A stretch of DNA of 64,000 nucleotides, taken from positions 1 through 64,000 of IMG/VR virus record IMGVR_UViG_3300021255_003058; one strand, given 5' to 3'. The DNA is from a virus (taxonomy: Duplodnaviria > Caudoviricetes). Positions 2,767 to 35,648 of the stretch are shown here, piece by piece (the stretch's first letter is position 1; each line of letters begins with the position of its first letter). The notes under the pieces were generated by a model that was not told where the DNA came from, did not search any database, and saw only the letters and a list, made by a program, of their open reading frames with translations. Position numbers and translations under genes: made by a program.

Positions 2767-3740
2767 TATATTGTAACATTCCAACATTTTATTATTTCTT
2801 CGCATTCTTTAATTTTATCTTCATCAAATACAAATAATTCTTTCATAAATGTTTTATAAGGCAAAAGATGTAAATTATCAGGTTTACATAACATATAACT
2901 CATTGTCACCTTTAATTGTGTAACATAATCACCTTTAATTTTTAAATATTCTTTATCATAATATGGAACAATACCATCAATTATTCTTGGAATTCTTTTT
3001 TTACCTATATAATTTTTGAAATCATATGTATTAGTATAATAATCCCTACTTATATTTGCCATTCCTGATAATATTGTTTTATTATCTTTTATCGGCGATT
3101 CTCTATCTGATGTGTATTCTTTACATGGTAATTTATTAATAACATCTATTGCGTAATTAATTTCTCTCGGATCATTTTTTGTATATATATAATATTGTTT
3201 ACCAGTATTTCTCCAAAAATATGTTAAAGTTCTAGTATCAAATCCACCGCTGAGTTCAATTATTAAATCTTCTGGATCTAAACTACCAATATATTGTTTA
3301 TATTTTTCTAACCAAGGTTGAATAATATATCCGCAATCTCTAATTGGTATATATAAAATTTGATCCCAACAATAATTAAAATTAAAATGATCTTTATACA
3401 ATTCTAAACTATCAAAAAAATGATCTTCACAAATTATTTCATCATATTGATCATATTTTTTATTAGTTGTTATTTTATTTGATGGATCATATTTATCATT
3501 TATAATTCCTTTAATTAAATTATGTTCAATTAAATAATCAGCTAATGATTGTTCATTAAAAGACACCCAGTATCTGTTTCCATAAATAAAATAAAACACA
3601 TTAGTTGAATATGTTTGTTTAAATTTAATGATTACCTTATTCTTTTCTTTTTGTACAGAAAAATTAAAACTATCAATATTTTCTATTTTATCAAAATTAT
3701 CTGAAGAAAAAATTATTTTATGATAATTTGTTTTATTCAT
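2766..3740 (-). CDS. Asparagine synthetase-like (PP-loop) protein
   Basis: IELSGGFDTR PP-loop motif. Confidence 0.5.
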   Translation of the reverse strand: MNKTNYHKIIFSSDNFDKIENIDSFNFSVQKEKNKVIIKFKQTYSTNVFYFIYGNRYWVSFNEQSLADYLIEHNLIKGIINDKYDPSNKITTNKKYDQYDEIICEDHFFDSLELYKDHFNFNYCWDQILYIPIRDCGYIIQPWLEKYKQYIGSLDPEDLIIELSGGFDTRTLTYFWRNTGKQYYIYTKNDPREINYAIDVINKLPCKEYTSDRESPIKDNKTILSGMANISRDYYTNTYDFKNYIGKKRIPRIIDGIVPYYDKEYLKIKGDYVTQLKVTMSYMLCKPDNLHLLPYKTFMKELFVFDEDKIKECEEIIKCWNVTI

Positions 3741-6445: not shown

Positions 6446-6556
6446 AATTATTTAATTTTTATTTATTATTGAAAATTTGCAATTTTCAAATTGCAATAAT
6501 ATTTAATGGTTTGCCTCCACCAAAAGGAGTTTTGCTTAGGAACTTTAACCAAATCG

Positions 6557-6627
6557 TAGTCCCAGTAGGACTCGAACCCACCTCAGCTGGTTTAGAAGCA
6601 GCGGCACAACCTCTGTACCATGGGACC
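6557..6627 (-). tRNA. tRNA-Sup(CUA), amber suppressor
   Basis: Cloverleaf; anticodon arm GCTGC-TTCTAAA-CCAGC, loop centre CTA; same C31.C39 mismatch as tRNA-Thr at 8304. Confidence 0.75.
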
Positions 6628-6722: not shown

Positions 6723-6754
6723 TTTAACAAACATATTGATACAACAAAATTTGA

Positions 6755-6822
6755 AAGCTATACTGGAATCGAACCTGCCTTTCTTGCACTACCAAGCGTA
6801 CTAACCGATATACTAATAGCCT
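6755..6822 (-). tRNA. tRNA-like gene with truncated anticodon arm
   Basis: Acceptor, D and T arms present; anticodon arm CTTG-GTAGTG-CAAG. Confidence 0.55.
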
Positions 6823-7879: not shown

Positions 7880-7936
7880 AAATGGTAATTTTTTATATCA
7901 CTAAATTTATCAAGAGAACTACCAAACTCATTGATT

Positions 7937-8075
7937 ATATCAAGGAACGTTCGACAAAAGTTCATAGAGTTGGATTCGAACCAACGACCTCCAGTTTTCA
8001 AGGCTGGTGTTCTACCACTGAACTACCCTTTCAAATTATTGGGAAAGAAGTAACTCTTATCTACACCATTGACAT
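7937..8075 (-). tRNA. Circularly permuted tRNA (anticodon TGA) flanked by split intron-like element
   Basis: Order: element 3' half, (C)TTTCCCA, spacer, GAAAGGG..D..anticodon..T arm, element 5' half. Confidence 0.7.
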
Positions 8076-8078
8076 TTG

Positions 8079-8149
8079 TTGCGTAGGGAGAAGTCGAACC
8101 CCCAGCACAAGGTTATGAGCCTTATATGTTACCCTTACACCACCACGCG
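8079..8149 (-). tRNA. tRNA-Met(CAT), C1:A72 initiator-like
   Basis: Cloverleaf, loop CTCATAA. Confidence 0.85.
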
Positions 8150-8385: not shown

Positions 8386-8468
8386 AATTTCATGTAACTA
8401 ACAAAGAAAGTATTATATAATATAAACCTTAACATATTGATGTAACTCTCTTTTACAACAATGAAATT
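8386..8468 (-). ncRNA. Bipartite intron-like element, permuted order, short cargo
   Basis: AATTTCAT-TGTTGTA-AAAGAGAGT-TACATC...ACTTTCTTT-GTTAGTTAC-ATGAAATT. Confidence 0.75.
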
Positions 8469-8470
8469 AG

Positions 8471-18359: not shown

Positions 18360-18379
18360 TTTCTCTCTATATATTATTG

Positions 18380-18470
18380 CGGAGAGGGTGGGGCTCGAAC
18401 CCACGCACCGGGTATTAGCCGACCTAAGACGTTAGCAGTGTCTCCCCTTCACCAACTTGGGTACCTCTCC
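18380..18470 (-). tRNA. tRNA-Ser(GCT)
   Basis: Cloverleaf with long variable arm. Confidence 0.9.
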
Positions 18471-20634: not shown

Positions 20635-20777
20635 AATTCCTGTAACATGCTTGAAAAGTGTTTTTATGGACTCGAACCATCACCTCGGGCTTTGCAGGCC
20701 CGCGCTCTAACCACTTAAGCTAAAAATCCAAAGTTTCTGGTGGATTAAGAAGTAACTCTTCAATTCAACAAGGAATT
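20635..20777 (-). tRNA. Circularly permuted tRNA-Cys(GCA) flanked by split intron-like element
   Basis: Acceptor 3' strand with CCA (TTAATCC-A-CCA, 20738-20748) lies upstream of the body GGATTTT..T arm (20666-20729). Confidence 0.8.
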
Positions 20778-21324: not shown

Positions 21325-21403
21325 ATTCATGTAACATTCGAGAAAAGTAAATTTGGAATAATCTTGGCAAGATTTGAAGTATCTCTTCTCTACAACAATG
21401 AAT
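21325..21403 (-). ncRNA. Bipartite intron-like element, permuted order, short hairpin cargo
   Basis: ATTCAT-TGTTGTA-GAGAAGAGA-TACTTC...ACTTTTCTC-GAATGTTAC-ATGAAT. Confidence 0.75.
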
Positions 21404-21406
21404 TTG

Positions 21407-22202: not shown

Positions 22203-22280
22203 AATTCCTGTAATAAGCGAATAAAGTATTTTATTAAGATCCAAATTCTTTGAAGTAACTCTATTCTTCAACAAGGAATT
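22203..22280 (-). ncRNA. Bipartite intron-like element, permuted order, short cargo
   Basis: AATTCCT-TGTTGAA-GAATAGAGT-TACTTC...ACTTTATTC-GCTTATTAC-AGGAATT. Confidence 0.75.
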
Positions 22281-22285
22281 ATTTG

Positions 22286-24066: not shown

Positions 24067-24202
24067 ATTATCGGAACAGCTATAAAAGTATTATTATGAA
24101 ACTTTCTCTCGGATTCGAACCGAGGAATCAATTCTGGAAAAATTGCATTAAACCACTTAATTAAAAAAGTAATCGAAGTAACTCTTATATACACCAGATA
24201 AT
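24067..24202 (-). tRNA. tRNA-Gly(TCC) (24100-24170) wholly enclosed by permuted intron-like element
   Basis: ATTATC-TGGTGTA-TATAAGAGT-TACTTC, tRNA, ACTTTTATA-GCTGTTCC-GATAAT. Confidence 0.75.
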
Positions 24203-26827: not shown

Positions 26828-29800
26828 ATGTTCAAACCTTTATTAAGAACATTACCAACGTTATCTGGTAATTTTACAATTGCATGTAAACTTAGAGAAT
26901 TCAATAAAGAAAATAATAATGAATATTCTACATATGTTAGATTAGCAAATATGATTCCATTACAAAATTTCATGTCAAACAAAAACATTGAAATTAATTT
27001 ATTGGATGGAAAATATGAATATGATGTAGCAAAATATTACTATTACTATTCAAATGTATTTTATAAGCATAATTACACATATAATAAAAATAATTATGCA
27101 ATTTTAGATTTAGACTCTATATATAATTACAATAATGATTCTCGTAATAAAGATTATGAATTTGGTTGTAAACGTATTCAATTTAGTCAGCATGGAAGTC
27201 AATTTAATTTCTATGCTCCAATATATATAGATAATATTAATGACTTACCAGAATATTTCTGTATTAATATTGTTATTAATGACCATTTAACTAAAAAAAT
27301 AAAAATATATATAAATAAAGATAATAAAAGAAATTATCTTAAAAATTACTTAGTAAGATATTTAAAACAAATAGATGAACGAGTAATATTTTGTTTACCA
27401 GAATCTTTACAAGCAACATATTTTGGTATTGATATTAGAAATGGTGGTATAAGCCAATATAAAGATAATGTATTTGGTAGTTTATATATTAATCAAAAGA
27501 CAATTAATAACTTTGATTATACTATATGCAAAGGATTTGAAAGAAATAATATTATAATGAGACAAATCATTCCTTTAAGTTTTTCATTTAATATTAATGA
27601 TTTGTTTAATAATTATGAACGTGATTTCTTTACAGGAGCAAAAATGCATATAAATGGAAATTATTTTACTAAAGGAAATACTGTATATGATATGTATGAT
27701 TTTGATATTAACTATACAAATAGTTTTAAGAATTTCAAAAAATATAATGAATATACAGGAGCATATGATTTCGTTATTGGAAAAGACTCAAATAATAAAT
27801 CAATAAATATAATGGATGTTGGGTTCCCTGCATTAAATGAATCCAAATATATTAAATATGCATACACTAATAAAATAACACCAATGTATTGTAAATTTAA
27901 AATGATGTTATCTGATGATAGTAATCCTTATATAACAAATATTAATTTTGCATATTCATATAACCAATATCCAAATCAGAAATATGGAGAATTTCCTACA
28001 ATGTTTAAAGGATTATTTCCAAAAATCATTATTGATAATAATGATTTAAAACTTCCTATTGGAGCATCATTAGATAAATATTATAAAGTAATAAAGAACA
28101 CCGGTAATAAAGTTATTATAAATACTAACAATATTGACAAATATAATAAATTAATGTCTAACTATTGTTCATCATGGTATAAAATAAATAATAATTTTGA
28201 TACTGATAATTTAGATGATTTCTTTAATAATGAAAATTGGTCAGACGTTAAATATGGATATTCATATTTTAATGGAATATTATATAATTTGAAAGATATT
28301 GGTAAAATTGATAAATTTGGTGTATTCTGTGATGTAAAATTAAATTATTTAAGTGAATCTAATATATATAATAACTTAATTAAAGGTAATATAATTTTAA
28401 GTGGAGAAACATTGTCATCTGGTAAAAAATTCTTTAATTATAATCAATCATATGATATGAAAATATATGATAATGATTATAATATAGAATATTTTAATAA
28501 AATTGTTGATATATCATTAAATAATTTTTCAGAAGATAATGTTAAAATTAATCAAAATATGATTAAAGATATCTATGGAACATATATAATTGAAGAAAAT
28601 TTTATCGAAGAAAATATGTTCTATAAAATTGATGATATATTTAATCAATTTAAAATTTATTTATCTATACAAGAATTAAAAGATAAATTAATAGAAAAAC
28701 AAATAAATGGATTTGAATTATTAGAAGCATACAATAATATAAATTTCTTTAATGAAAAATATGACAGTATATATGGAGAAACTGTTAAACAATTTATGCT
28801 TATTGGAAAAACATATGACACACAAGAATATCAAGAAAAATATAATTGGCTTTATAATTTATTATATTATACTACACAGTTAACGAAAGAAAAATATAAA
28901 GTTAGTGATAATTATAATTCAATATATTATAATGAAGATATTAATGGTAAATTGTGTATGTTTATCAAAAACAGATTTATTCATAAAACAGATTTATTGA
29001 ATATATTAAAAGAATATAATGAAGACTTATTAAAGTTTGGTGATCTGAATCAACTTGTAAAAATTTGTTTTAATTATTTTGTAGAAAACGAAAGAAACAT
29101 ATTTCATAATATTAGTAATATTGATTCTCCAATTTTAGATGAAAATGGGAAAACAATTAGATTGTCATTAGATAATTGGCTTATTAATCAAATTGGAACT
29201 GATTTATTTAATGAATTAAAAACTCATTATGCTTATTCGCAATTTAGAACAATTTTATTACAAATGATTACTGAATATAATAGTGATTCAAGTATAACAC
29301 CAGATAAAATTAATCCTAATGAAACAATAAAAGGGCATAATTTAATATTTCTATCAAATTATTTATCATTATTGCAATCATATAAATTTGAAATACTTGG
29401 TAATAAAAATGGAATTGATATAAAAGATTATTTTATAAAAAATGAATCAAATGAAAAGGACATATATGTTGATCCATATAATTTAGAAAATTATATAGAT
29501 TTATATAATAAAAATCATAATGATAAAATATCAAAAAAATTTACATATAGAAAAATATTTAGTAATATAATTGATAAAAATCATTTAATAGAATTTTGTC
29601 AAAAACTTAAGAATTTTGATAATGATTTAAATCCAATAATATCTAACGTAAATTTATTGGATATTATATATGTAAAAGAACGTTGCTGGTATATTGAAAA
29701 TAATGTAATTGATATTAAAGATAGATATATTTCATTATATGATTATCTTTATAATAAATTCGTTGAAATTGGTAATAAAGAACGTATTAAATATAAATCA

Positions 29801-32344
29801 TATACAAGTAATGAAAATAAAGAAGTTCAAAATCAATTAGAAAATAGATATTTAACATGTCTTGAAGATTTTCTAAAATATTTCATATATTTACATAAAT
29901 CAAATAATAATGGCTTAATATTACAATGGTTAGAAAATTCATTATCTGATACAAAATCAGAATCAAATAAATTTATATTACATATTGAATTATTAGATAC
30001 AAATATTTCAGAATCATGGAATATTGAATTAGATTTATGTGTTTATAAAAATATGATATTGTTTGATAATAACTTAAGAAAATTAATACAAAATAATTTA
30101 TTCTTATATTTATATGTCAATGATAAAATGTCTTTAGAAAATTTAAGTATGTGGCCTATTATTTCATCAAATGATATTAATAATTCAAAATATATATATA
30201 AAGACACTGATGATTTTTTGACACCATTATTTACAAATATTTATTTTAATGAAGATGATTTTAATAATTTAAAGCAAATGATATCTAAAGAAAAAATAAA
30301 TATAAACAACAAATATGTATTGTCAAGTAATAAATATTTTAAAGAAATAAATGTTGATGAAACATTTAACACGTTAATTATAAATAACGATAAATCTATA
30401 TACAATATTATTGATAACATTAATAATTTATATAATATTTTGAATAATGACATATTAGATTTATTAAATCAAATTAAAAATTTATTATCAGATTGTTTTA
30501 ATTTCACATATACTTTATATGATCAAAATGCTGAACACTATTATTTGCAAAAAATATTATTAGAATCATATATTAATAATTTAGAAAACGAAAATAAGCT
30601 AAATAACGAAATATTTGATAATAATTATAAAGACATATTTATTGAATTAAATATTATTCAAGATCAATCTTTATTATTTACTGATATTAAAGATGATATA
30701 AATATATTGCAACGAGTAAATGATTCTTTAGTTAAATATCAATATCAATATAATATATATACATATTTAAAAAAATTAAATGTATATAACATATTTAATA
30801 TGATTGATAACATTATCAATGATTTACTATCATATAAATTAAACAATATTGATTTATTGATTAAAAATGATGCAAATATAAAACATATTATAAATTTATT
30901 ACAAAATATTAATAATATTTATAATGAACAAGTTTTATCATTGTTTAATAATGTTAAAAAATTACTTAATAATTTATATAATACTAATAGTTATTTTAAA
31001 TCATCAATAAGTAATTTTAACATAAAAGGATTACATATTAATACATTATTATCAAATAAAGATATATTTATTGAACAATTAAGAAATACAACATTTAGTG
31101 TAAATTGGATTAATGAAATTTCAAATATTAATTCATATAATAACATTGAAAAATTAACATTTAAAGATAAATGGAATGAATATTGTTTAGATAATGATAT
31201 ATATACTGAAGATATTAATTCTGATAATTATATTGAGCAAATTAATTTAATTATTGATTATCTTAAAAAATATTATAATGATTTATATTATAAAATAATT
31301 GAAAGCAAAGGCATAATTTTATATTCAATAAGTAACATATTAAATATTGATTATAAACCTATTTTATGTGATAAATTTAATTATAATGATTTATATAAAA
31401 TATATACATATGATTATAATGGCCAGACATATGCATTTTATTTTATTAAAATAAATGTTGATAATACTAATAATTCATTTAATGTTCTTAATGAATTTAA
31501 TCTTAATGTAAAATTTGATTCAATTGATGGTGTATTAATTAATGATGCAAAGTTTAATGATTTCTTTAATAAAATATTTTATTTATTAGAGCCTTTTTTA
31601 AAATTAAATATATTTAATGAATTCACAAAAAATATAAATACTATCATATATCCACACGAGTCAGAAATTAATATTGAATATATAGGATCTATTACAAATA
31701 ATGATACAACAAAAATAAGATATAGCAATTTAACAGATGATGGCGTATTATATGATAATATTGTTAAAATGTCAAAATCTAAAAAAATTAAATTATTAAG
31801 ATACTTTAATTATATTACACCTTTGTTAGTTAAAACAAATGTAATAAATGACACATGGGAATTACAATTTATAGACAATAATAATATTAGTATATATAAT
31901 AAAAAATATAATATATTAAGTAAAGAAAACATTAATATTTATAAATATAATGGTATTAAATATTATACTGGAGTATATTCAACTTCTAATGAATTATTTA
32001 TGAAAAACAATAACATTGAAATTCCAGATATAATAGAACAATATGAATATAAGCATTTTAATGATAATGTTGTGTATAATTTACCAGAAGAAATATATAT
32101 AAAAATTGATAAATATTATACATATGATGAAATTTCTTTATTTAAAGAAAATGATATGAATATAATTGAAGAAAAAAAGAATATATTATTAAAATATTTT
32201 AATAATTTGGGATTAGATTTTAAAAATATTATTTTATTTTTATTTAATAAGTATAATAGTAATATGACTATTGAGCCTATTCATTTAAGAGCAAATAAAA
32301 ACGAAAAACTTTATAAAGTTTCATATAAATTTAACTTAATATAA
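26828..32344 (+). CDS. Giant hypothetical protein (possibly structural)
   Basis: 1838-aa uninterrupted Asn/Ile/Tyr-rich ORF. Confidence 0.8.
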   Translation: MFKPLLRTLPTLSGNFTIACKLREFNKENNNEYSTYVRLANMIPLQNFMSNKNIEINLLDGKYEYDVAKYYYYYSNVFYKHNYTYNKNNYAILDLDSIYNYNNDSRNKDYEFGCKRIQFSQHGSQFNFYAPIYIDNINDLPEYFCINIVINDHLTKKIKIYINKDNKRNYLKNYLVRYLKQIDERVIFCLPESLQATYFGIDIRNGGISQYKDNVFGSLYINQKTINNFDYTICKGFERNNIIMRQIIPLSFSFNINDLFNNYERDFFTGAKMHINGNYFTKGNTVYDMYDFDINYTNSFKNFKKYNEYTGAYDFVIGKDSNNKSINIMDVGFPALNESKYIKYAYTNKITPMYCKFKMMLSDDSNPYITNINFAYSYNQYPNQKYGEFPTMFKGLFPKIIIDNNDLKLPIGASLDKYYKVIKNTGNKVIINTNNIDKYNKLMSNYCSSWYKINNNFDTDNLDDFFNNENWSDVKYGYSYFNGILYNLKDIGKIDKFGVFCDVKLNYLSESNIYNNLIKGNIILSGETLSSGKKFFNYNQSYDMKIYDNDYNIEYFNKIVDISLNNFSEDNVKINQNMIKDIYGTYIIEENFIEENMFYKIDDIFNQFKIYLSIQELKDKLIEKQINGFELLEAYNNINFFNEKYDSIYGETVKQFMLIGKTYDTQEYQEKYNWLYNLLYYTTQLTKEKYKVSDNYNSIYYNEDINGKLCMFIKNRFIHKTDLLNILKEYNEDLLKFGDLNQLVKICFNYFVENERNIFHNISNIDSPILDENGKTIRLSLDNWLINQIGTDLFNELKTHYAYSQFRTILLQMITEYNSDSSITPDKINPNETIKGHNLIFLSNYLSLLQSYKFEILGNKNGIDIKDYFIKNESNEKDIYVDPYNLENYIDLYNKNHNDKISKKFTYRKIFSNIIDKNHLIEFCQKLKNFDNDLNPIISNVNLLDIIYVKERCWYIENNVIDIKDRYISLYDYLYNKFVEIGNKERIKYKSYTSNENKEVQNQLENRYLTCLEDFLKYFIYLHKSNNNGLILQWLENSLSDTKSESNKFILHIELLDTNISESWNIELDLCVYKNMILFDNNLRKLIQNNLFLYLYVNDKMSLENLSMWPIISSNDINNSKYIYKDTDDFLTPLFTNIYFNEDDFNNLKQMISKEKININNKYVLSSNKYFKEINVDETFNTLIINNDKSIYNIIDNINNLYNILNNDILDLLNQIKNLLSDCFNFTYTLYDQNAEHYYLQKILLESYINNLENENKLNNEIFDNNYKDIFIELNIIQDQSLLFTDIKDDINILQRVNDSLVKYQYQYNIYTYLKKLNVYNIFNMIDNIINDLLSYKLNNIDLLIKNDANIKHIINLLQNINNIYNEQVLSLFNNVKKLLNNLYNTNSYFKSSISNFNIKGLHINTLLSNKDIFIEQLRNTTFSVNWINEISNINSYNNIEKLTFKDKWNEYCLDNDIYTEDINSDNYIEQINLIIDYLKKYYNDLYYKIIESKGIILYSISNILNIDYKPILCDKFNYNDLYKIYTYDYNGQTYAFYFIKINVDNTNNSFNVLNEFNLNVKFDSIDGVLINDAKFNDFFNKIFYLLEPFLKLNIFNEFTKNINTIIYPHESEINIEYIGSITNNDTTKIRYSNLTDDGVLYDNIVKMSKSKKIKLLRYFNYITPLLVKTNVINDTWELQFIDNNNISIYNKKYNILSKENINIYKYNGIKYYTGVYSTSNELFMKNNNIEIPDIIEQYEYKHFNDNVVYNLPEEIYIKIDKYYTYDEISLFKENDMNIIEEKKNILLKYFNNLGLDFKNIILFLFNKYNSNMTIEPIHLRANKNEKLYKVSYKFNLI

Positions 32345-32345
32345 A

Positions 32346-35300
32346 ATGATAAAAAATGTAAATTTATTACAAAATCCTGTAGAATATGATAAATATTTAG
32401 AAGAATATCTTATACAAGCGTTGGCTAATCTTGGACAACGTATAGGTATTAAAGGTGATGGCATATCATATGAATATTTTACTTTTAGTGATTTATTAGG
32501 AGATTCAATATCATATTATAATGCATCAAAAATAGGATTTGTTCAATATAAAAAATCAATTGATTCAGATAAATATGCTGCTAATTTTGGTATATGTGAT
32601 TATGATCCTGAAACTGGTTCATTATTCAATTATAATAAATTATCTGAAAGTTTAGATATTAATGATATTTTATATTTTCCAAATGATTTGACTTTCGATA
32701 TTACATTAGGTGGTATTGAAAAATATTCAAAAAATAGTATTTGTATTAATGATGGAAATGATATAACATTTATGCTTGTTGGAAAACTAATAGGTACAAA
32801 TGATGATGAAGAACTTAATTCAATATTATATTATTATAAATTTGATATTAATTCTAATTTATTAAAATATGGGGCTAAAATATATCATGATAGTGATGAT
32901 TGGTTTCATTTAATAACATTTGTTAATAAAACATATAAAAATAATAATTATAAGTCTAGTGCATTATCAAATGAATATGAAATGAATATACATATGTTTA
33001 ATGCGCAAAAATTAAAAGAATTAGATTTATTACTTAAAACAACACAAAGCAAATATTATAATAGTTTTATATCATTATTTAAATTTAGTAATTATAAATC
33101 AACAAATGAAATACCATTATCATTAATAAGACCAGAATTTAATGATATTAATGAATTATTAAATTATAGTGATGAAGAGTCATATCATTTTTCAACAAAT
33201 TCACCAATTGCTTTAATACTTAATTATTTACCAAATTCATTATATGATAAAAGAACTATTGATTTAATATATAATACAAGCAATAATGAATTTTTCTCTA
33301 TTGATTCAAATGAATTTGAAGATATAATATCAATGTTCAATTCTGAATATGGAATTAACTTAAATGAAGAATTAGTTCAATTAAATGAAGATTGCAATAA
33401 TTTATATTTTAATATCTTCAATTATTATAATGAAAAATATTATTTAGAAACAAAAGCTGGTTTTATTAAAAGAATATTGTCTAAATTATATGAAAAGATT
33501 TCTGATTACAACTATAATGATGAATTAATGTTATATATACCTTTAGATTATCAATTTCATTATATTTGCAATAGTAATAATAGTATGTATATATATTATT
33601 CTACTAATACATATGTTACATTTGTTAATTTAGACTCTATTAATACAAGTAATTTTTGGGATAATAATACAAATTTGATTTTTGATTATAATAGTGATGT
33701 AAGTAAAGTCAAAACATATAATTTTGAAATTAGTTATAATCGTAGTGATGATAAATTAATTAACTCTGTTGTAATCAAAGATATATTTACGATGCCTTAC
33801 ATTAATGCAAATAGTAATTGGAGTATTAATGATAAAGATACAAAAATTCAAGCAATTGGCAAAGACGCAGGTAATCCAAATATTATATTGATATATAATA
33901 AAGACAAGCAAAATCTTGGTTTAGATAATAGTTTCTATTTACTTAATGCAATATCAAACTATAAAGAAATATTAGGATCAACATTCAATAAGCAAGAGTT
34001 TAATGTTAATCCCGCATTATTTGAAAATACATATACAACAGATGTTAAATGTTGTTCTTATATTCCAGAAATTAATAAGAATAATTTTGAATACTTTAGA
34101 AATAGTATGATTATTAGTATTTCAGATTTAGATTGTTTATCTGATGAATCTATGAAAACATACTATAAAGGATCGTATATATTAACAATGTGGTGTGTTA
34201 AAGAAACATCAAATACTGATTATAAGTTTGAATGTATTAATCATATAAATACTAATTATGCATTAGCTTTAGGTTCAACAGTCAATCTAATTAATGCAAC
34301 TAGTGATTCATCTGTTGAAAACTTAAATGATCAAGATTTAATACTATTAAAAGCAATAATAACAGAATTAGCTCAAAATAGATTATCAATCAATGAAAAT
34401 AATTGGTTAATTATAAAGAATAAGCAATCAGAAGAATATTCTGCAATAAATGAAAACATTGGACAATATTTAAATGATCTTAATGCTATTATCCAATATA
34501 ATGATACTGTGAAACTAAATAATAATCATATACAACATTCACAGACAAATAAGTATATTAAATCATTAACTAATATTAAAACAACAAATTCTCTTTATCC
34601 TAAATATTATAAGACACAAACAACAATTTCTACTGTTAAACAAGATGTAATAAAAGAATTAAGAAATGTAGGAACAACAATTAATAATGTAAGAACATCT
34701 AAAGTTTATGTTGATGGATCACAAGTGCAAAATGTTGAATCATTAATACAAAATATTGAAAACAAATATGGTGAACAAAAAAGTATAATTGAACACGAAA
34801 TACAAATTGAGCAAATAGAAAAATCTAAATATAATTATAATGAATTTATATTTAATGAAAATATTCCTACATTAGATTTTGCTGAAATATTCAATAGAAA
34901 CTTTAATGTATTAAATAGATTAAATGTTGTTTCATTAGATAATAATGGAACTATTTATAATGCATATATTGGAACATCTTACGATGAACAAAATAAATCA
35001 ACATTACATATTGGTACAACAAATACTAATATTAATATTGGTAGTGAAACATTAGTTGATGAATTAGAAAAAACTAAATTTAATACGCATAATAATATTT
35101 CTATTGATTTTGAAAATATTATATTAAATGCAACTAAACAAGTAATAACAAAACAAAATATATTATATCAGGCAACTTTTAATAATATAACATATAATAT
35201 ATTATCAATTCCTTTAATTGGTATTTGTAGTGCTATGTATTCATCATCATTATTTACTACTGAAAATATTAGTTTATCAAATACATTATATATTAATGAT

Positions 35301-35648
35301 ATACCACAAATATCTAATTATAAATTATCTCTATATAATTTATTTAATACATATTTTAATGTTAACTTACCTAATAACGAAAAAAATATATCATTAAATA
35401 TATATAATATTAAAGATATTATATCATCAGTAAATCCTCAGTATAATGAAGATATGTATTTTATTTCTACGAAATATAATAACAATGATAGATTACATAT
35501 TTTATTTAGTAATAATATAATACAAAGTAATAATGTTGTTAATAGTAATGTTATATATGCTGGATATAAATTAAATATAATGTATTATGTTTCATATGAT
35601 AATAATGATAAGATAAGTAAGTATAATATTTATCTTTCTATCAGCTAA
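32346..35648 (+). CDS. Large hypothetical protein (possibly structural)
   Basis: 1100-aa ORF coupled to the previous gene. Confidence 0.8.
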   Translation: MIKNVNLLQNPVEYDKYLEEYLIQALANLGQRIGIKGDGISYEYFTFSDLLGDSISYYNASKIGFVQYKKSIDSDKYAANFGICDYDPETGSLFNYNKLSESLDINDILYFPNDLTFDITLGGIEKYSKNSICINDGNDITFMLVGKLIGTNDDEELNSILYYYKFDINSNLLKYGAKIYHDSDDWFHLITFVNKTYKNNNYKSSALSNEYEMNIHMFNAQKLKELDLLLKTTQSKYYNSFISLFKFSNYKSTNEIPLSLIRPEFNDINELLNYSDEESYHFSTNSPIALILNYLPNSLYDKRTIDLIYNTSNNEFFSIDSNEFEDIISMFNSEYGINLNEELVQLNEDCNNLYFNIFNYYNEKYYLETKAGFIKRILSKLYEKISDYNYNDELMLYIPLDYQFHYICNSNNSMYIYYSTNTYVTFVNLDSINTSNFWDNNTNLIFDYNSDVSKVKTYNFEISYNRSDDKLINSVVIKDIFTMPYINANSNWSINDKDTKIQAIGKDAGNPNIILIYNKDKQNLGLDNSFYLLNAISNYKEILGSTFNKQEFNVNPALFENTYTTDVKCCSYIPEINKNNFEYFRNSMIISISDLDCLSDESMKTYYKGSYILTMWCVKETSNTDYKFECINHINTNYALALGSTVNLINATSDSSVENLNDQDLILLKAIITELAQNRLSINENNWLIIKNKQSEEYSAINENIGQYLNDLNAIIQYNDTVKLNNNHIQHSQTNKYIKSLTNIKTTNSLYPKYYKTQTTISTVKQDVIKELRNVGTTINNVRTSKVYVDGSQVQNVESLIQNIENKYGEQKSIIEHEIQIEQIEKSKYNYNEFIFNENIPTLDFAEIFNRNFNVLNRLNVVSLDNNGTIYNAYIGTSYDEQNKSTLHIGTTNTNINIGSETLVDELEKTKFNTHNNISIDFENIILNATKQVITKQNILYQATFNNITYNILSIPLIGICSAMYSSSLFTTENISLSNTLYINDIPQISNYKLSLYNLFNTYFNVNLPNNEKNISLNIYNIKDIISSVNPQYNEDMYFISTKYNNNDRLHILFSNNIIQSNNVVNSNVIYAGYKLNIMYYVSYDNNDKISKYNIYLSIS

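What the first reader, a model, noticed from the sequence alone, without database searches (positions are those of the whole stretch)
7937..8075. Second permuted tRNA split in the acceptor stem, with UGA anticodon on a class-I body
Same architecture as the Cys gene: (C)TTTC-CCA lies upstream of GAAAGGG.., and joining gives a 7-bp acceptor stem. The anticodon reads TGA (Ser), but the long variable arm that SerRS normally needs is missing, so the charged amino acid is uncertain.
Basis: partly seen in the sequence, partly recalled or inferred. Interest (0 to 1): 0.78.

Follow-up and report, generated by a model that had tools for sequence, protein, structure and literature searches.

The report
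Back-to-front tRNA look-alike on Ro60 handle
A giant gut or rumen phage encodes a 139-base RNA that is a complete tRNA shape with its top closed by a loop and its ends leaving through the side, mounted on a conserved helix that elsewhere sits beside genes for the Ro60 RNA-binding ring. It is therefore most likely a tRNA-mimicking Y RNA, not a tRNA gene that must be cut and rejoined.

Summary
On the minus strand, 8075-7937, a class-I tRNA body with anticodon loop CUUGAAA (UGA) has no usable collinear acceptor stem. The sequence CUUUC-CCA lies 7 nt upstream of G1 and pairs with GAAAG. With the UC that follows the T arm, this gives a 7-bp acceptor stem closed by a 10-nt loop that starts with CCA.

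Of 51 tRNA calls in the contig, only this one and the Cys-like element have that feature, and none encodes CCA at its 3' end. Two related megaphage contigs carry the same element with A-CCA or G-CCA.

The reading as a gene awaiting re-joining is only partly supported. The flanks are the two strands of a covarying helix, here called half B and half A.
- 20 of 28 viral records with the motif encode a TROVE/Ro60 gene, against 88 of 50,697 phage records overall.
- The motif lies within about 1 kb of TROVE in 11 of 12 TROVE loci examined, and a TROVE gene lies in 6 of 8 bacterial or archaeal MAG loci that carry it.
- Sister copies give sub-threshold hits to Rfam YrlA.

Most likely this is a Y-RNA-like tRNA mimic in a new topology, possibly opened by RNase P to expose CCA, as in M. 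smegmatis YrlA. This contig has no TROVE gene. The scan has noted the same handle before, on this genome and on others.

The parts
8069..8075 (-). Outer stem, 5' strand (AUGUCAA). It starts 3 nt after the 3' end of the upstream tRNA-Met.
   Evidence: Pairs with 7943-7937 in the MFE fold. The stem covaries in the homologues L036 and L043 (helix 1: 4 pairs changed on both sides).
8047..8068 (-). Half B of the handle (UGGUGUAGAUAAGAGUUACUUC): bulged U, 2-bp GG, internal-loop strand, and the 5' strand of the 9-bp inner helix. Its last C doubles as acceptor position 68.
   Evidence: The motif occurs 9 times in the window against 2.07 expected. It matches exactly in 44 viral stretches and 8 MAG contigs. 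Covariation with half A was measured.
8040..8046 (-). UUUC (acceptor positions 69-72) followed directly by CCA. The discriminator is absent in this copy.
   Evidence: The homologues have A-CCA and G-CCA. Only 2 of 51 array tRNAs have such an upstream piece.
8033..8039 (-). Rest of the 10-nt loop that closes the acceptor stem (AUAAUUU). The predicted RNase P site lies between 8033 and 8032.
   Evidence: for the fold. The cleavage is inferred by analogy with M. smegmatis YrlA.
7967..8032 (-). tRNA-like body: GAAAGGG (positions 1-7), D arm, anticodon arm with loop CUUGAAA, variable loop AGGUC, T arm, and UC (positions 66-67).
   Evidence: Rfam tRNA 50.3 bits over model positions 6-65; ARAGORN. 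D, T and acceptor helices are invariant and the anticodon stem shows compensatory changes across the 3 homologues.
7962..7966 (-). Junction spacer UAUGA between the body and half A.
7944..7961 (-). Half A of the handle (ACUUUUGUCGAACGUUCC): 3' strand of the inner helix, internal-loop strand, and 2-bp CC.
7937..7943 (-). Outer stem, 3' strand (UUGAUAU).

Best explanation
The 139-nt transcript segment 8075-7937 (minus strand) is a Y-RNA-like non-coding RNA and probably not a decoding tRNA.

Its two ends pair to form a conserved handle: an outer stem, a bulged U, 2 bp, an internal loop and a 9-bp helix. I infer that this handle is the docking site for a Ro60 (TROVE) ring protein, encoded either in the unsampled half of this phage or by the host.

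The handle carries a full tRNA mimic. The mimic's acceptor stem is closed by a loop, and the handle leaves it through the 3' strand between positions 67 and 68. This is a different circular permutation from YrlA, where the handle replaces the anticodon arm.

The RNA is made as part of the polycistronic tRNA array and is released by the processing of its tRNA neighbours.

The loop encodes CCA directly after the acceptor 3' strand and the stem is 7 bp long. I therefore infer that RNase P can cut 5' of G1 (8032) and that trimming exposes a CCA end. That would give a two-piece RNA held together by the handle, as shown for M. smegmatis YrlA.

Shown here: the sequence anatomy, its conservation and covariation, and the link of the handle to Ro60 genes. 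Inferred: Ro60 binding, RNase P opening, and the biological role (tethering Ro60 to tRNA-binding enzymes or nucleases, or acting as a tRNA decoy).
For: Anatomy.

The handle is a real structure.
- Across 63 distinct copies, 87.9% of cells are paired against 70.3% in shuffles (0 of 1000 shuffles reach the observed value). The 2-bp element switches among GG:CC, GU:AC, GC:GC and AG:CU.
- Across the three homologues of this element, 96.6% of cells are paired, with 7 compensatory pairs.

The handle is linked to Ro60.
- The ORFs immediately after stand-alone handles in L007 and L024 are TROVE plus vWA proteins.
- 20 of 28 viral records with half B encode TROVE, and 9 of 10 that are at least 90% complete do. 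The base rate is 88 of 50,697 phage records.
- Half B lies within about 1 kb of TROVE, on the same strand, in 11 of 12 TROVE loci.
- TROVE lies in 6 of 8 MAG loci that carry the motif.

The handle is linked to YrlA. Handles carrying T arm, acceptor hairpin and D arm in that order hit RF02553 over the full model at 25-45 bits, E down to 7e-7.

Relatives of this phage: G014, G012/G009 and G017 share 83%, 75% and 60% amino-acid identity in an SMC-like protein. G012 and G017 encode TROVE.

Precedent: M. smegmatis YrlA, with a 7-bp acceptor stem, is cut by RNase P and carries CCA in vivo. D. radiodurans Y RNAs are co-transcribed with a tRNA (PMC4201824).

The CCA is specific to these elements. In the L043 homologue the anticodon loop is non-canonical while the stem is kept by compensatory changes.
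Against: - No TROVE gene is found in this 116-kb contig (CheckV completeness 44%), nor in the closest relative G014 (83% complete).
- In the megaphages that do have TROVE, it lies tens to hundreds of kb from the tRNA arrays. This does not meet the criterion for known Y RNAs of lying within 4 kb.
- The element itself gives no RF02553 hit at E<=1. No copy reaches the gathering score of 69 bits.
- The handle does not carry the GNCGAAN0-1G motif on its 5' strand. It has GKUGWAG there.
- The array contains no other tRNA-Ser(UGA), and two of three homologues keep a canonical UGA loop. A decoding role would explain both.
- Encoded N-CCA is exactly what a tRNA end needs.
- There is no transcript or binding data.
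Confidence: 0.6

Rival explanations
1. It is a true permuted tRNA gene. On this reading the handle acts as a permuted intron. An endonuclease cuts at both junctions, a ligase such as phage RtcB joins position 67 to 68 to give a circle, and RNase P plus 3' trimming open the loop at G1 and CCA. The product would be a normal-topology tRNA with anticodon UGA.
For: - Joining gives a perfect 7-bp stem with CCA correctly placed.
- The same handle interrupts otherwise tRNA-like genes in the opposite permutation. A mobile intron would explain that.
- Relatives G012, G014 and G017 encode RtcB.
- No other tRNA-Ser(UGA) is present in the contig.
Against: - The junction has 4-5 unpaired nt on each side of a three-way junction and is not a bulge-helix-bulge.
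- No tRNA_int_endo (PF01974) gene is found in this contig or its four relatives.
- The handle also occurs with only a short hairpin as cargo, or around closed YrlA-type domains without CCA. In those cases splicing would yield nothing useful.
- The handle tracks Ro60 genes.
- This copy lacks a discriminator, and the L043 homologue has a non-canonical anticodon loop.
- A class-I body cannot be a standard SerRS substrate (established knowledge of Ser identity).
Confidence: 0.1
2. It is a two-piece working tRNA. After RNase P opens the loop, the CCA end is aminoacylated and the RNA decodes UCN codons while still carrying the handle, or it serves as a charged tRNA mimic.
For: - CCA is conserved in 3 of 3 homologues.
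- The acceptor stem is 7 bp.
- The anticodon loop is canonical in 2 of 3 homologues.
- The contig has no other Ser(UGA) decoder.
- Chen et al. raise possible aminoacylation of cleaved M. smegmatis YrlA.
Against: - A roughly 20-bp helix protruding at 67/68 lies on the acceptor/T-arm face used by EF-Tu and the ribosome (established structural knowledge; not tested here).
- There is no discriminator in this copy.
- The body has no identity set for SerRS.
- The anticodon is not conserved in L043.
Confidence: 0.12
3. The handle is a Ro60-independent processing or stability clamp for the polycistronic tRNA array, pairing leader with trailer. On this reading the element is a decaying tRNA gene trapped inside it.
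For: - One handle encloses a complete collinear tRNA-Gly(UCC) with leader and trailer (24187/24089).
- Handles start 3-15 nt after tRNA 3' ends.
- No TROVE gene is found in this contig or in G014.
Against: - The co-occurrence and adjacency with TROVE is strong in small phages and bacteria that have no tRNA arrays.
- The tRNA-like core and the CCA are conserved across phages that share only 60-75% protein identity. That argues against decay.
Confidence: 0.13
4. It is an ordinary collinear tRNA-Ser(UGA) gene with a weak acceptor stem, or a pseudogene, as ARAGORN annotates it. On this reading the upstream complement is chance.
For: ARAGORN call at 7960-8033; Rfam tRNA 50.3 bits.
Against: - The collinear stem pairs 4 of 7 positions, two of them G-U, and its 3' strand runs into the conserved half A.
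- Rfam aligns only model positions 6-65.
- The upstream CUUUC-(N)-CCA is conserved in two other contigs and is unique to 2 of 51 tRNAs.
Confidence: 0.03

Closest known systems
YrlA-type Y RNAs of bacteria and phages bound by Ro60/Rsr (Rfam RF02553; Chen et al. 2014, PMC4201824)
   Same: - A terminal stem presumed to dock Ro60, plus a tRNA-like domain with canonical D and T arms and an acceptor stem closed by a loop.
- Sister RNAs with the same handle give full-length sub-threshold RF02553 hits and sit next to TROVE genes.
   Different: - Here the handle enters the acceptor stem at 67/68 and a complete anticodon arm is kept (order acceptor-D-anticodon-V-T). In YrlA the handle replaces the anticodon arm (order V-T-acceptor-D).
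- The 5' strand has GKUGWAG in place of GNCGAAN0-1G.
- There is no RF02553 hit on this element.
- It is embedded in a tRNA array far from any Ro60 gene.
M. smegmatis YrlA, processed by RNase P and given a CCA tail (PMC4201824)
   Same: - A 7-bp closed acceptor stem.
- A predicted two-piece product with a CCA 3' end, held together by the Ro60 stem.
   Different: - There CA is added after cleavage. Here CCA is encoded in the loop.
- Cleavage is shown there and only inferred here.
Circularly permuted tRNA genes of Cyanidioschyzon merolae and Thermofilum pendens (Soma 2007; Chan, Cozen and Lowe 2011, PMC3218864)
   Same: - The 3' part of the tRNA lies upstream of the 5' part on one transcript.
- Standard tRNA finders give a truncated, low-quality call with a failed acceptor stem.
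   Different: - Those have a bulge-helix-bulge at the joining site, an archaeal or eukaryal splicing endonuclease, and breaks at 59/60 or in the anticodon or D regions.
- Here the break is at 67/68, there is no BHB and no endonuclease gene, and the flanks form a Ro60-associated helix.
D. radiodurans Yrn1/Yrn2 and Thermus phage phiLo Yrl1/Yrl2 (PMC4201824; PMC12135203)
   Same: - Y RNAs co-transcribed with tRNA.
- Yrn1 can be drawn with an anticodon-like arm.
- Phage Ro60 binds phage-encoded Y-like RNAs and host PNPase.
   Different: - Those carry a CGAA-type motif and lie beside the Ro60 gene.
- None has a complete cloverleaf or an encoded CCA.

Membership tests
YrlA / bacterial-phage Y RNA (RF02553) | Scores at or above the Rfam gathering threshold (69 bits) | tested here: not met
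   There is no RF02553 match at E<=1 on 7880-8080. Sister handles with YrlA order score 25-45 bits.
YrlA / bacterial-phage Y RNA (RF02553) | tRNA-like domain with conserved D and T arms and an acceptor stem closed by a loop | tested here: met
   D, T and acceptor helices are 100% paired and invariant in the 3 homologues.
YrlA / bacterial-phage Y RNA (RF02553) | Terminal stem replaces the anticodon arm (order V-T-acceptor-D) | tested here: not met
   The order here is acceptor loop-D-anticodon-V-T, with the stem leaving at 67/68.
YrlA / bacterial-phage Y RNA (RF02553) | GNCGAAN0-1G motif near the 5' end (Ro60 contact) | tested here: not met
   The 5' strand reads UGGUGUAGA. The only literal match, GUCGAACG, is on the 3' strand and is not conserved in the homologues.
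YrlA / bacterial-phage Y RNA (RF02553) | Encoded within about 4 kb of a Ro60/TROVE gene on the same strand | tested here: not met
   This contig has no TROVE gene. The criterion is met for the same handle in other records. In the related megaphages G012 and G017, TROVE is far from the arrays.
YrlA / bacterial-phage Y RNA (RF02553) | Bound by Ro60/Rsr | not testable with these tools
   This needs RIP or EMSA.
Circularly permuted tRNA gene (C. merolae / T. pendens type) | 3' segment upstream of 5' segment on the same strand, giving a full cloverleaf when joined | tested here: met
   Only 5 nt plus CCA are displaced.
Circularly permuted tRNA gene (C. merolae / T. pendens type) | Bulge-helix-bulge motif at the joining site | tested here: not met
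   The junction has 4-5 unpaired nt on each side and is followed by a 9-10-bp helix. The defining feature is taken from PMC3218864.
Circularly permuted tRNA gene (C. merolae / T. pendens type) | Splicing endonuclease available | tested here: not met
   PF01974 is absent from G000, G012, G017, G014 and G009. Bacterial hosts are not known to have it (established knowledge). RtcB ligase is present in 3 relatives.
Circularly permuted tRNA gene (C. merolae / T. pendens type) | Circular intermediate and mature joined tRNA | not testable with these tools
   This needs RNA sequencing.
tRNA-Ser | Long variable arm (class II) used by SerRS | tested here: not met
   The variable loop is the 5 nt AGGUC. 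The genuine tRNA-Ser(GCU) at 18379-18470 is 92 nt.

The most novel reading that the evidence does not exclude
The Ro60-associated handle is a new kind of protein-dependent tRNA intron that also works in the permuted arrangement. It would be excised from this transcript and the ends sealed by phage RtcB. The circle would then be opened at the encoded CCA, giving the first circularly permuted tRNA gene known in a virus of bacteria: a class-I tRNA reading UCN codons with unknown charging.
Probability: 0.08. Interest if true: 0.92.

Novelty: new variant of a known kind. Interest (0 to 1): 0.6.

Why it matters
Known Y RNAs mimic only part of a tRNA and lie beside their Ro60 gene. This RNA differs in four ways.
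- It displays a whole cloverleaf, anticodon arm included.
- It encodes its own CCA.
- It uses a permutation point (67/68) that I did not find described.
- It sits among more than 50 genuine tRNA genes of a megaphage.

The handle is modular. It occurs alone, inserted in tRNAs, around YrlA-type domains, around a complete tRNA, and here.

If Ro60 binding holds, phages would be building a repertoire of tRNA-shaped adaptors for one ring protein. That bears on how phages manage or protect tRNA pools, and on the open question of what the tRNA-like domain of bacterial Y RNAs is for.

There is also a practical consequence. tRNA finders count such elements as decoding tRNAs (here 'Ser-UGA'), which inflates phage tRNA inventories.

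The handle is also present in the culturable Bacteroides phage crAss001, so the family can be tested at the bench.

Tried and rejected
1. Collinear tRNA. Rejected: the acceptor pairs only 4 of 7 positions and overlaps half A.

2. Half B as a D-arm hairpin or a promoter. Rejected: its internal GUAG/UUAC pairing is not kept between copies, whereas its pairing with half A covaries.

3. The literal GNCGAAN0-1G match in half A (GUCGAACG). It is the only minus-strand match in the window, but it lies on the 3' strand and is not conserved in L036 or L043. I treat it as coincidence.

4. Rfam. There are only tRNA hits at gathering thresholds in the window and in 12 related loci, and no ribozyme family.

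5. More homologues by exact D-arm patterns. These found only L042/L043 and an unrelated ordinary tRNA, L060. L036 was recovered through the handle search instead.

6. TROVE in this contig: none.

7. Similarity of the body to the other array tRNAs. None is close. The nearest is the Cys-like element, so the body is not a recent copy of a working tRNA in this array.

8. Literature. No paper in the library links crAss001 with TROVE or Y RNA, and none reports permuted tRNA genes in phages.

Full report
**Context.** The window is the first 64 kb of a 116-kb IMG/VR viral contig, 44% complete by CheckV, with 17-36% G+C. It carries 51 ARAGORN and 54 Rfam tRNA calls, all on the minus strand between 6.5 and 26.3 kb. 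An SMC-like protein of the window is 83%, 75% and 60% identical to proteins of viral records of 236 kb (G014), 376 and 200 kb (G012, G009) and 193 kb (G017). The phage therefore belongs to a megaphage lineage.

**The observation.** The minus strand 8075-7937 holds a tRNA body whose D arm, anticodon arm (loop CUUGAAA, anticodon UGA), 5-nt variable loop and T arm are canonical. Rfam tRNA scores 50.3 bits, but the alignment stops at model positions 6 and 65.
- The ARAGORN call (7960-8033) forces a collinear acceptor stem that pairs only 4 of 7 positions.
- Seven nucleotides upstream of G1 (8032) lies CUUUC-CCA. CUUUC pairs with GAAAG (positions 1-5), and the UC after the T arm pairs with G6 and G7.
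- The result is a 7-bp acceptor stem whose top is closed by a 10-nt loop beginning with CCA and whose 3' strand is interrupted between positions 67 and 68.
- Among the 51 tRNA calls of the contig, only this one and the Cys-like element at 20657-20729 have such an upstream piece. None of the 51 encodes a 3' CCA.
- The same element occurs in L036 (193-kb contig) with UUUC-A-CCA and in L043/L042 (376- and 200-kb contigs) with UUUC-G-CCA. This copy lacks the discriminator.

**The flanks.** The element is bracketed by two conserved half-motifs.
- Half B is TGKTGWAGAWWAGAGTTACTTC, at 8068-8047.
- Half A is ACTYTWWTCGNNNGTT(CC/AC), at 7961-7944.
- Each is extended by a 7-bp outer stem (8075-8069 with 7943-7937).
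- Half B occurs 9 times in the window against 2.07 expected. About 12 B/A pairs are present on the minus strand.
- B and A form a 9-bp helix, an internal loop and a 2-bp element, followed by a bulged U and the outer stem.
- Over 63 distinct copies from this genome and 44 other viral stretches, 87.9% of the proposed pairs are standard, against 70.3% after shuffling partners (0 of 1000 shuffles reach the observed value). The 2-bp element switches among GG:CC, GU:AC, GC:GC and AG:CU.
- In the three homologues of this element, 96.6% of cells pair. Seven pairs carry compensatory changes, in the outer stem, the handle and the anticodon stem. The acceptor, D and T helices are invariant.

**The handle is modular.** It occurs in five forms.
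1. With only a short hairpin as cargo, directly after tRNA 3' ends.
2. Closed by a loop and inserted into tRNA-like genes.
3. Around domains with the order V, T arm, closed acceptor hairpin, D arm, which is the YrlA order.
4. Around a complete collinear tRNA-Gly(UCC), at 24187/24089.
5. Around the Ser-like and Cys-like acceptor-split elements.

**Link to Ro60.**
- The ORFs that follow stand-alone handles in L007 and L024 are TROVE plus vWA proteins.
- Of 28 viral records carrying half B, 20 encode TROVE, and 9 of the 10 that are at least 90% complete do. A tblastn with one of these proteins finds TROVE in 88 of 50,697 phage records.
- In 11 of 12 TROVE loci fetched, half B lies within about 1 kb on the same strand.
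- Half B also matches 8 contigs of bacterial and archaeal MAGs. TROVE lies in the fetched locus in 6 of them.
- Handles with YrlA order give full-length sub-threshold hits to Rfam YrlA: 25-39 bits in phages and 33-45 bits in MAGs, against a gathering score of 69.
- One carrier is the culturable Bacteroides phage crAss001, where the stretch is unannotated.

Limits of this link:
- This contig has no TROVE gene.
- Relatives G012 (98% complete) and G017 have one, far from their tRNA arrays.
- G014 (83% complete) shows none.

**Mechanism.** The best-supported reading is a Y-RNA-like molecule: a presumed Ro60-docking handle carrying a tRNA mimic.

The published precedent is close (PMC4201824). Bacterial and phage YrlA RNAs have a Ro60-binding stem and a tRNA-like domain with a closed acceptor stem. 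M. smegmatis YrlA is the one with a 7-bp acceptor stem. It is cut by RNase P in vivo and in vitro, and its 5' half ends in CCA. D. radiodurans Y RNAs are co-transcribed with a tRNA.

By analogy, I infer that the loop here is opened 5' of G1 and trimmed to the encoded CCA, giving two pieces held by the handle. The conservation of N-CCA in 3 of 3 homologues supports this inference, as does its absence from all ordinary tRNAs of the array. So does its absence from the YrlA-order copies, whose acceptor loops are short (GAA, UUCG and the like). The step itself is not shown.

**What differs from YrlA.**
- The permutation point is 67/68 in the acceptor stem, whereas in YrlA the handle replaces the anticodon arm.
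- A complete anticodon arm is retained.
- The 5' strand has GKUGWAG where YrlA has GNCGAAN0-1G.
- The location is inside a tRNA array, away from any Ro60 gene.

The element itself gives no RF02553 hit. I therefore file it as working like a Y RNA, and as a new variant of that kind, without claiming membership of RF02553.

A permuted tRNA gene that needs re-joining is not excluded.
- For it: relatives encode RtcB, the contig has no other tRNA-Ser(UGA), and two of three homologues keep a canonical UGA loop.
- Against it:
  - The junction is not a bulge-helix-bulge (the defining feature is taken from PMC3218864).
  - No splicing-endonuclease gene is present in this contig or its four relatives.
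  - The handle occurs where splicing would produce nothing useful.
  - This copy lacks a discriminator.
  - The L043 homologue has the non-canonical loop UGUUUAA on a compensated stem.
  - The class-I body lacks the long arm SerRS uses.

**Literature and earlier notes.** I found no paper in the searchable library describing this handle, crAss001 Y RNAs, or permuted tRNA genes in phages. A jumbo-phage survey notes only that some jumbo phages carry a TROVE protein, which in cells works with a tRNA-like partner (PMC7824862). Earlier notes of this scan had already proposed the Ro60 reading for the same handle, on this genome and on other phage genomes. I re-derived the TROVE association, the covariation and the YrlA similarity independently here.

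Noticed in passing
window 24089-24196 (-): A complete, collinear tRNA-Gly(UCC) (24170-24100, good 7-bp acceptor) is enclosed by half B (24196-24175) and half A (24089-24075), with a 4-nt leader and a 10-nt trailer. Here the handle carries a whole pre-tRNA as cargo.
   Followed up: partly
window 20659-20775 (-); L031:~1290-1450; L045:~3400-3540: The Cys-like acceptor-split element has AAUCC-A-CCA in this window and AAUCC-G-CCA in L031. The L045 homologue has a 5-nt loop without CCA. The anticodon loops read CUGCAAA, CUACAAA and CUACAAA.
   Followed up: partly
window 8411-8470, 21348-21405, 22227-22285 (-): Stand-alone handles with only a short hairpin as cargo start 10-15 nt after tRNA 3' ends. 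Their outer stems covary between copies.
   Followed up: partly
window 6556-6627 and 6753-6822 (-): There is a suppressor-type tRNA with anticodon CUA (ARAGORN labels it 'Pyl') and a tRNA-like call with a 2-nt anticodon. The first hints at TAG reassignment in this phage.
   Followed up: no
MH675552.1 96283-96783 (= L027:7850-8350): The handle, inserted in a tRNA-like gene next to the TROVE gene, is 100% identical in the culturable Bacteroides phage crAss001, where the stretch carries no annotation.
   Followed up: partly
G012:C1:6722-7942, G014:C1:179073-180287, G017:C1:157165-158364: The related megaphages encode RtcB RNA ligase. G012 and G017 also encode TROVE. This echoes the Salmonella rsr-yrlBA-rtcBA grouping, but the genes are dispersed.
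   Followed up: no
window 26828-35648 (+): Two very large ORFs (1838 and 1100 aa) lie in a stretch of only 17-20% G+C immediately after the tRNA array.
   Followed up: no
L014/L050 and L032/L051: Three handles lie in tandem immediately upstream of a TROVE gene. The middle one carries an anticodon-like hairpin, T arm, closed acceptor hairpin and D arm.
   Followed up: partly
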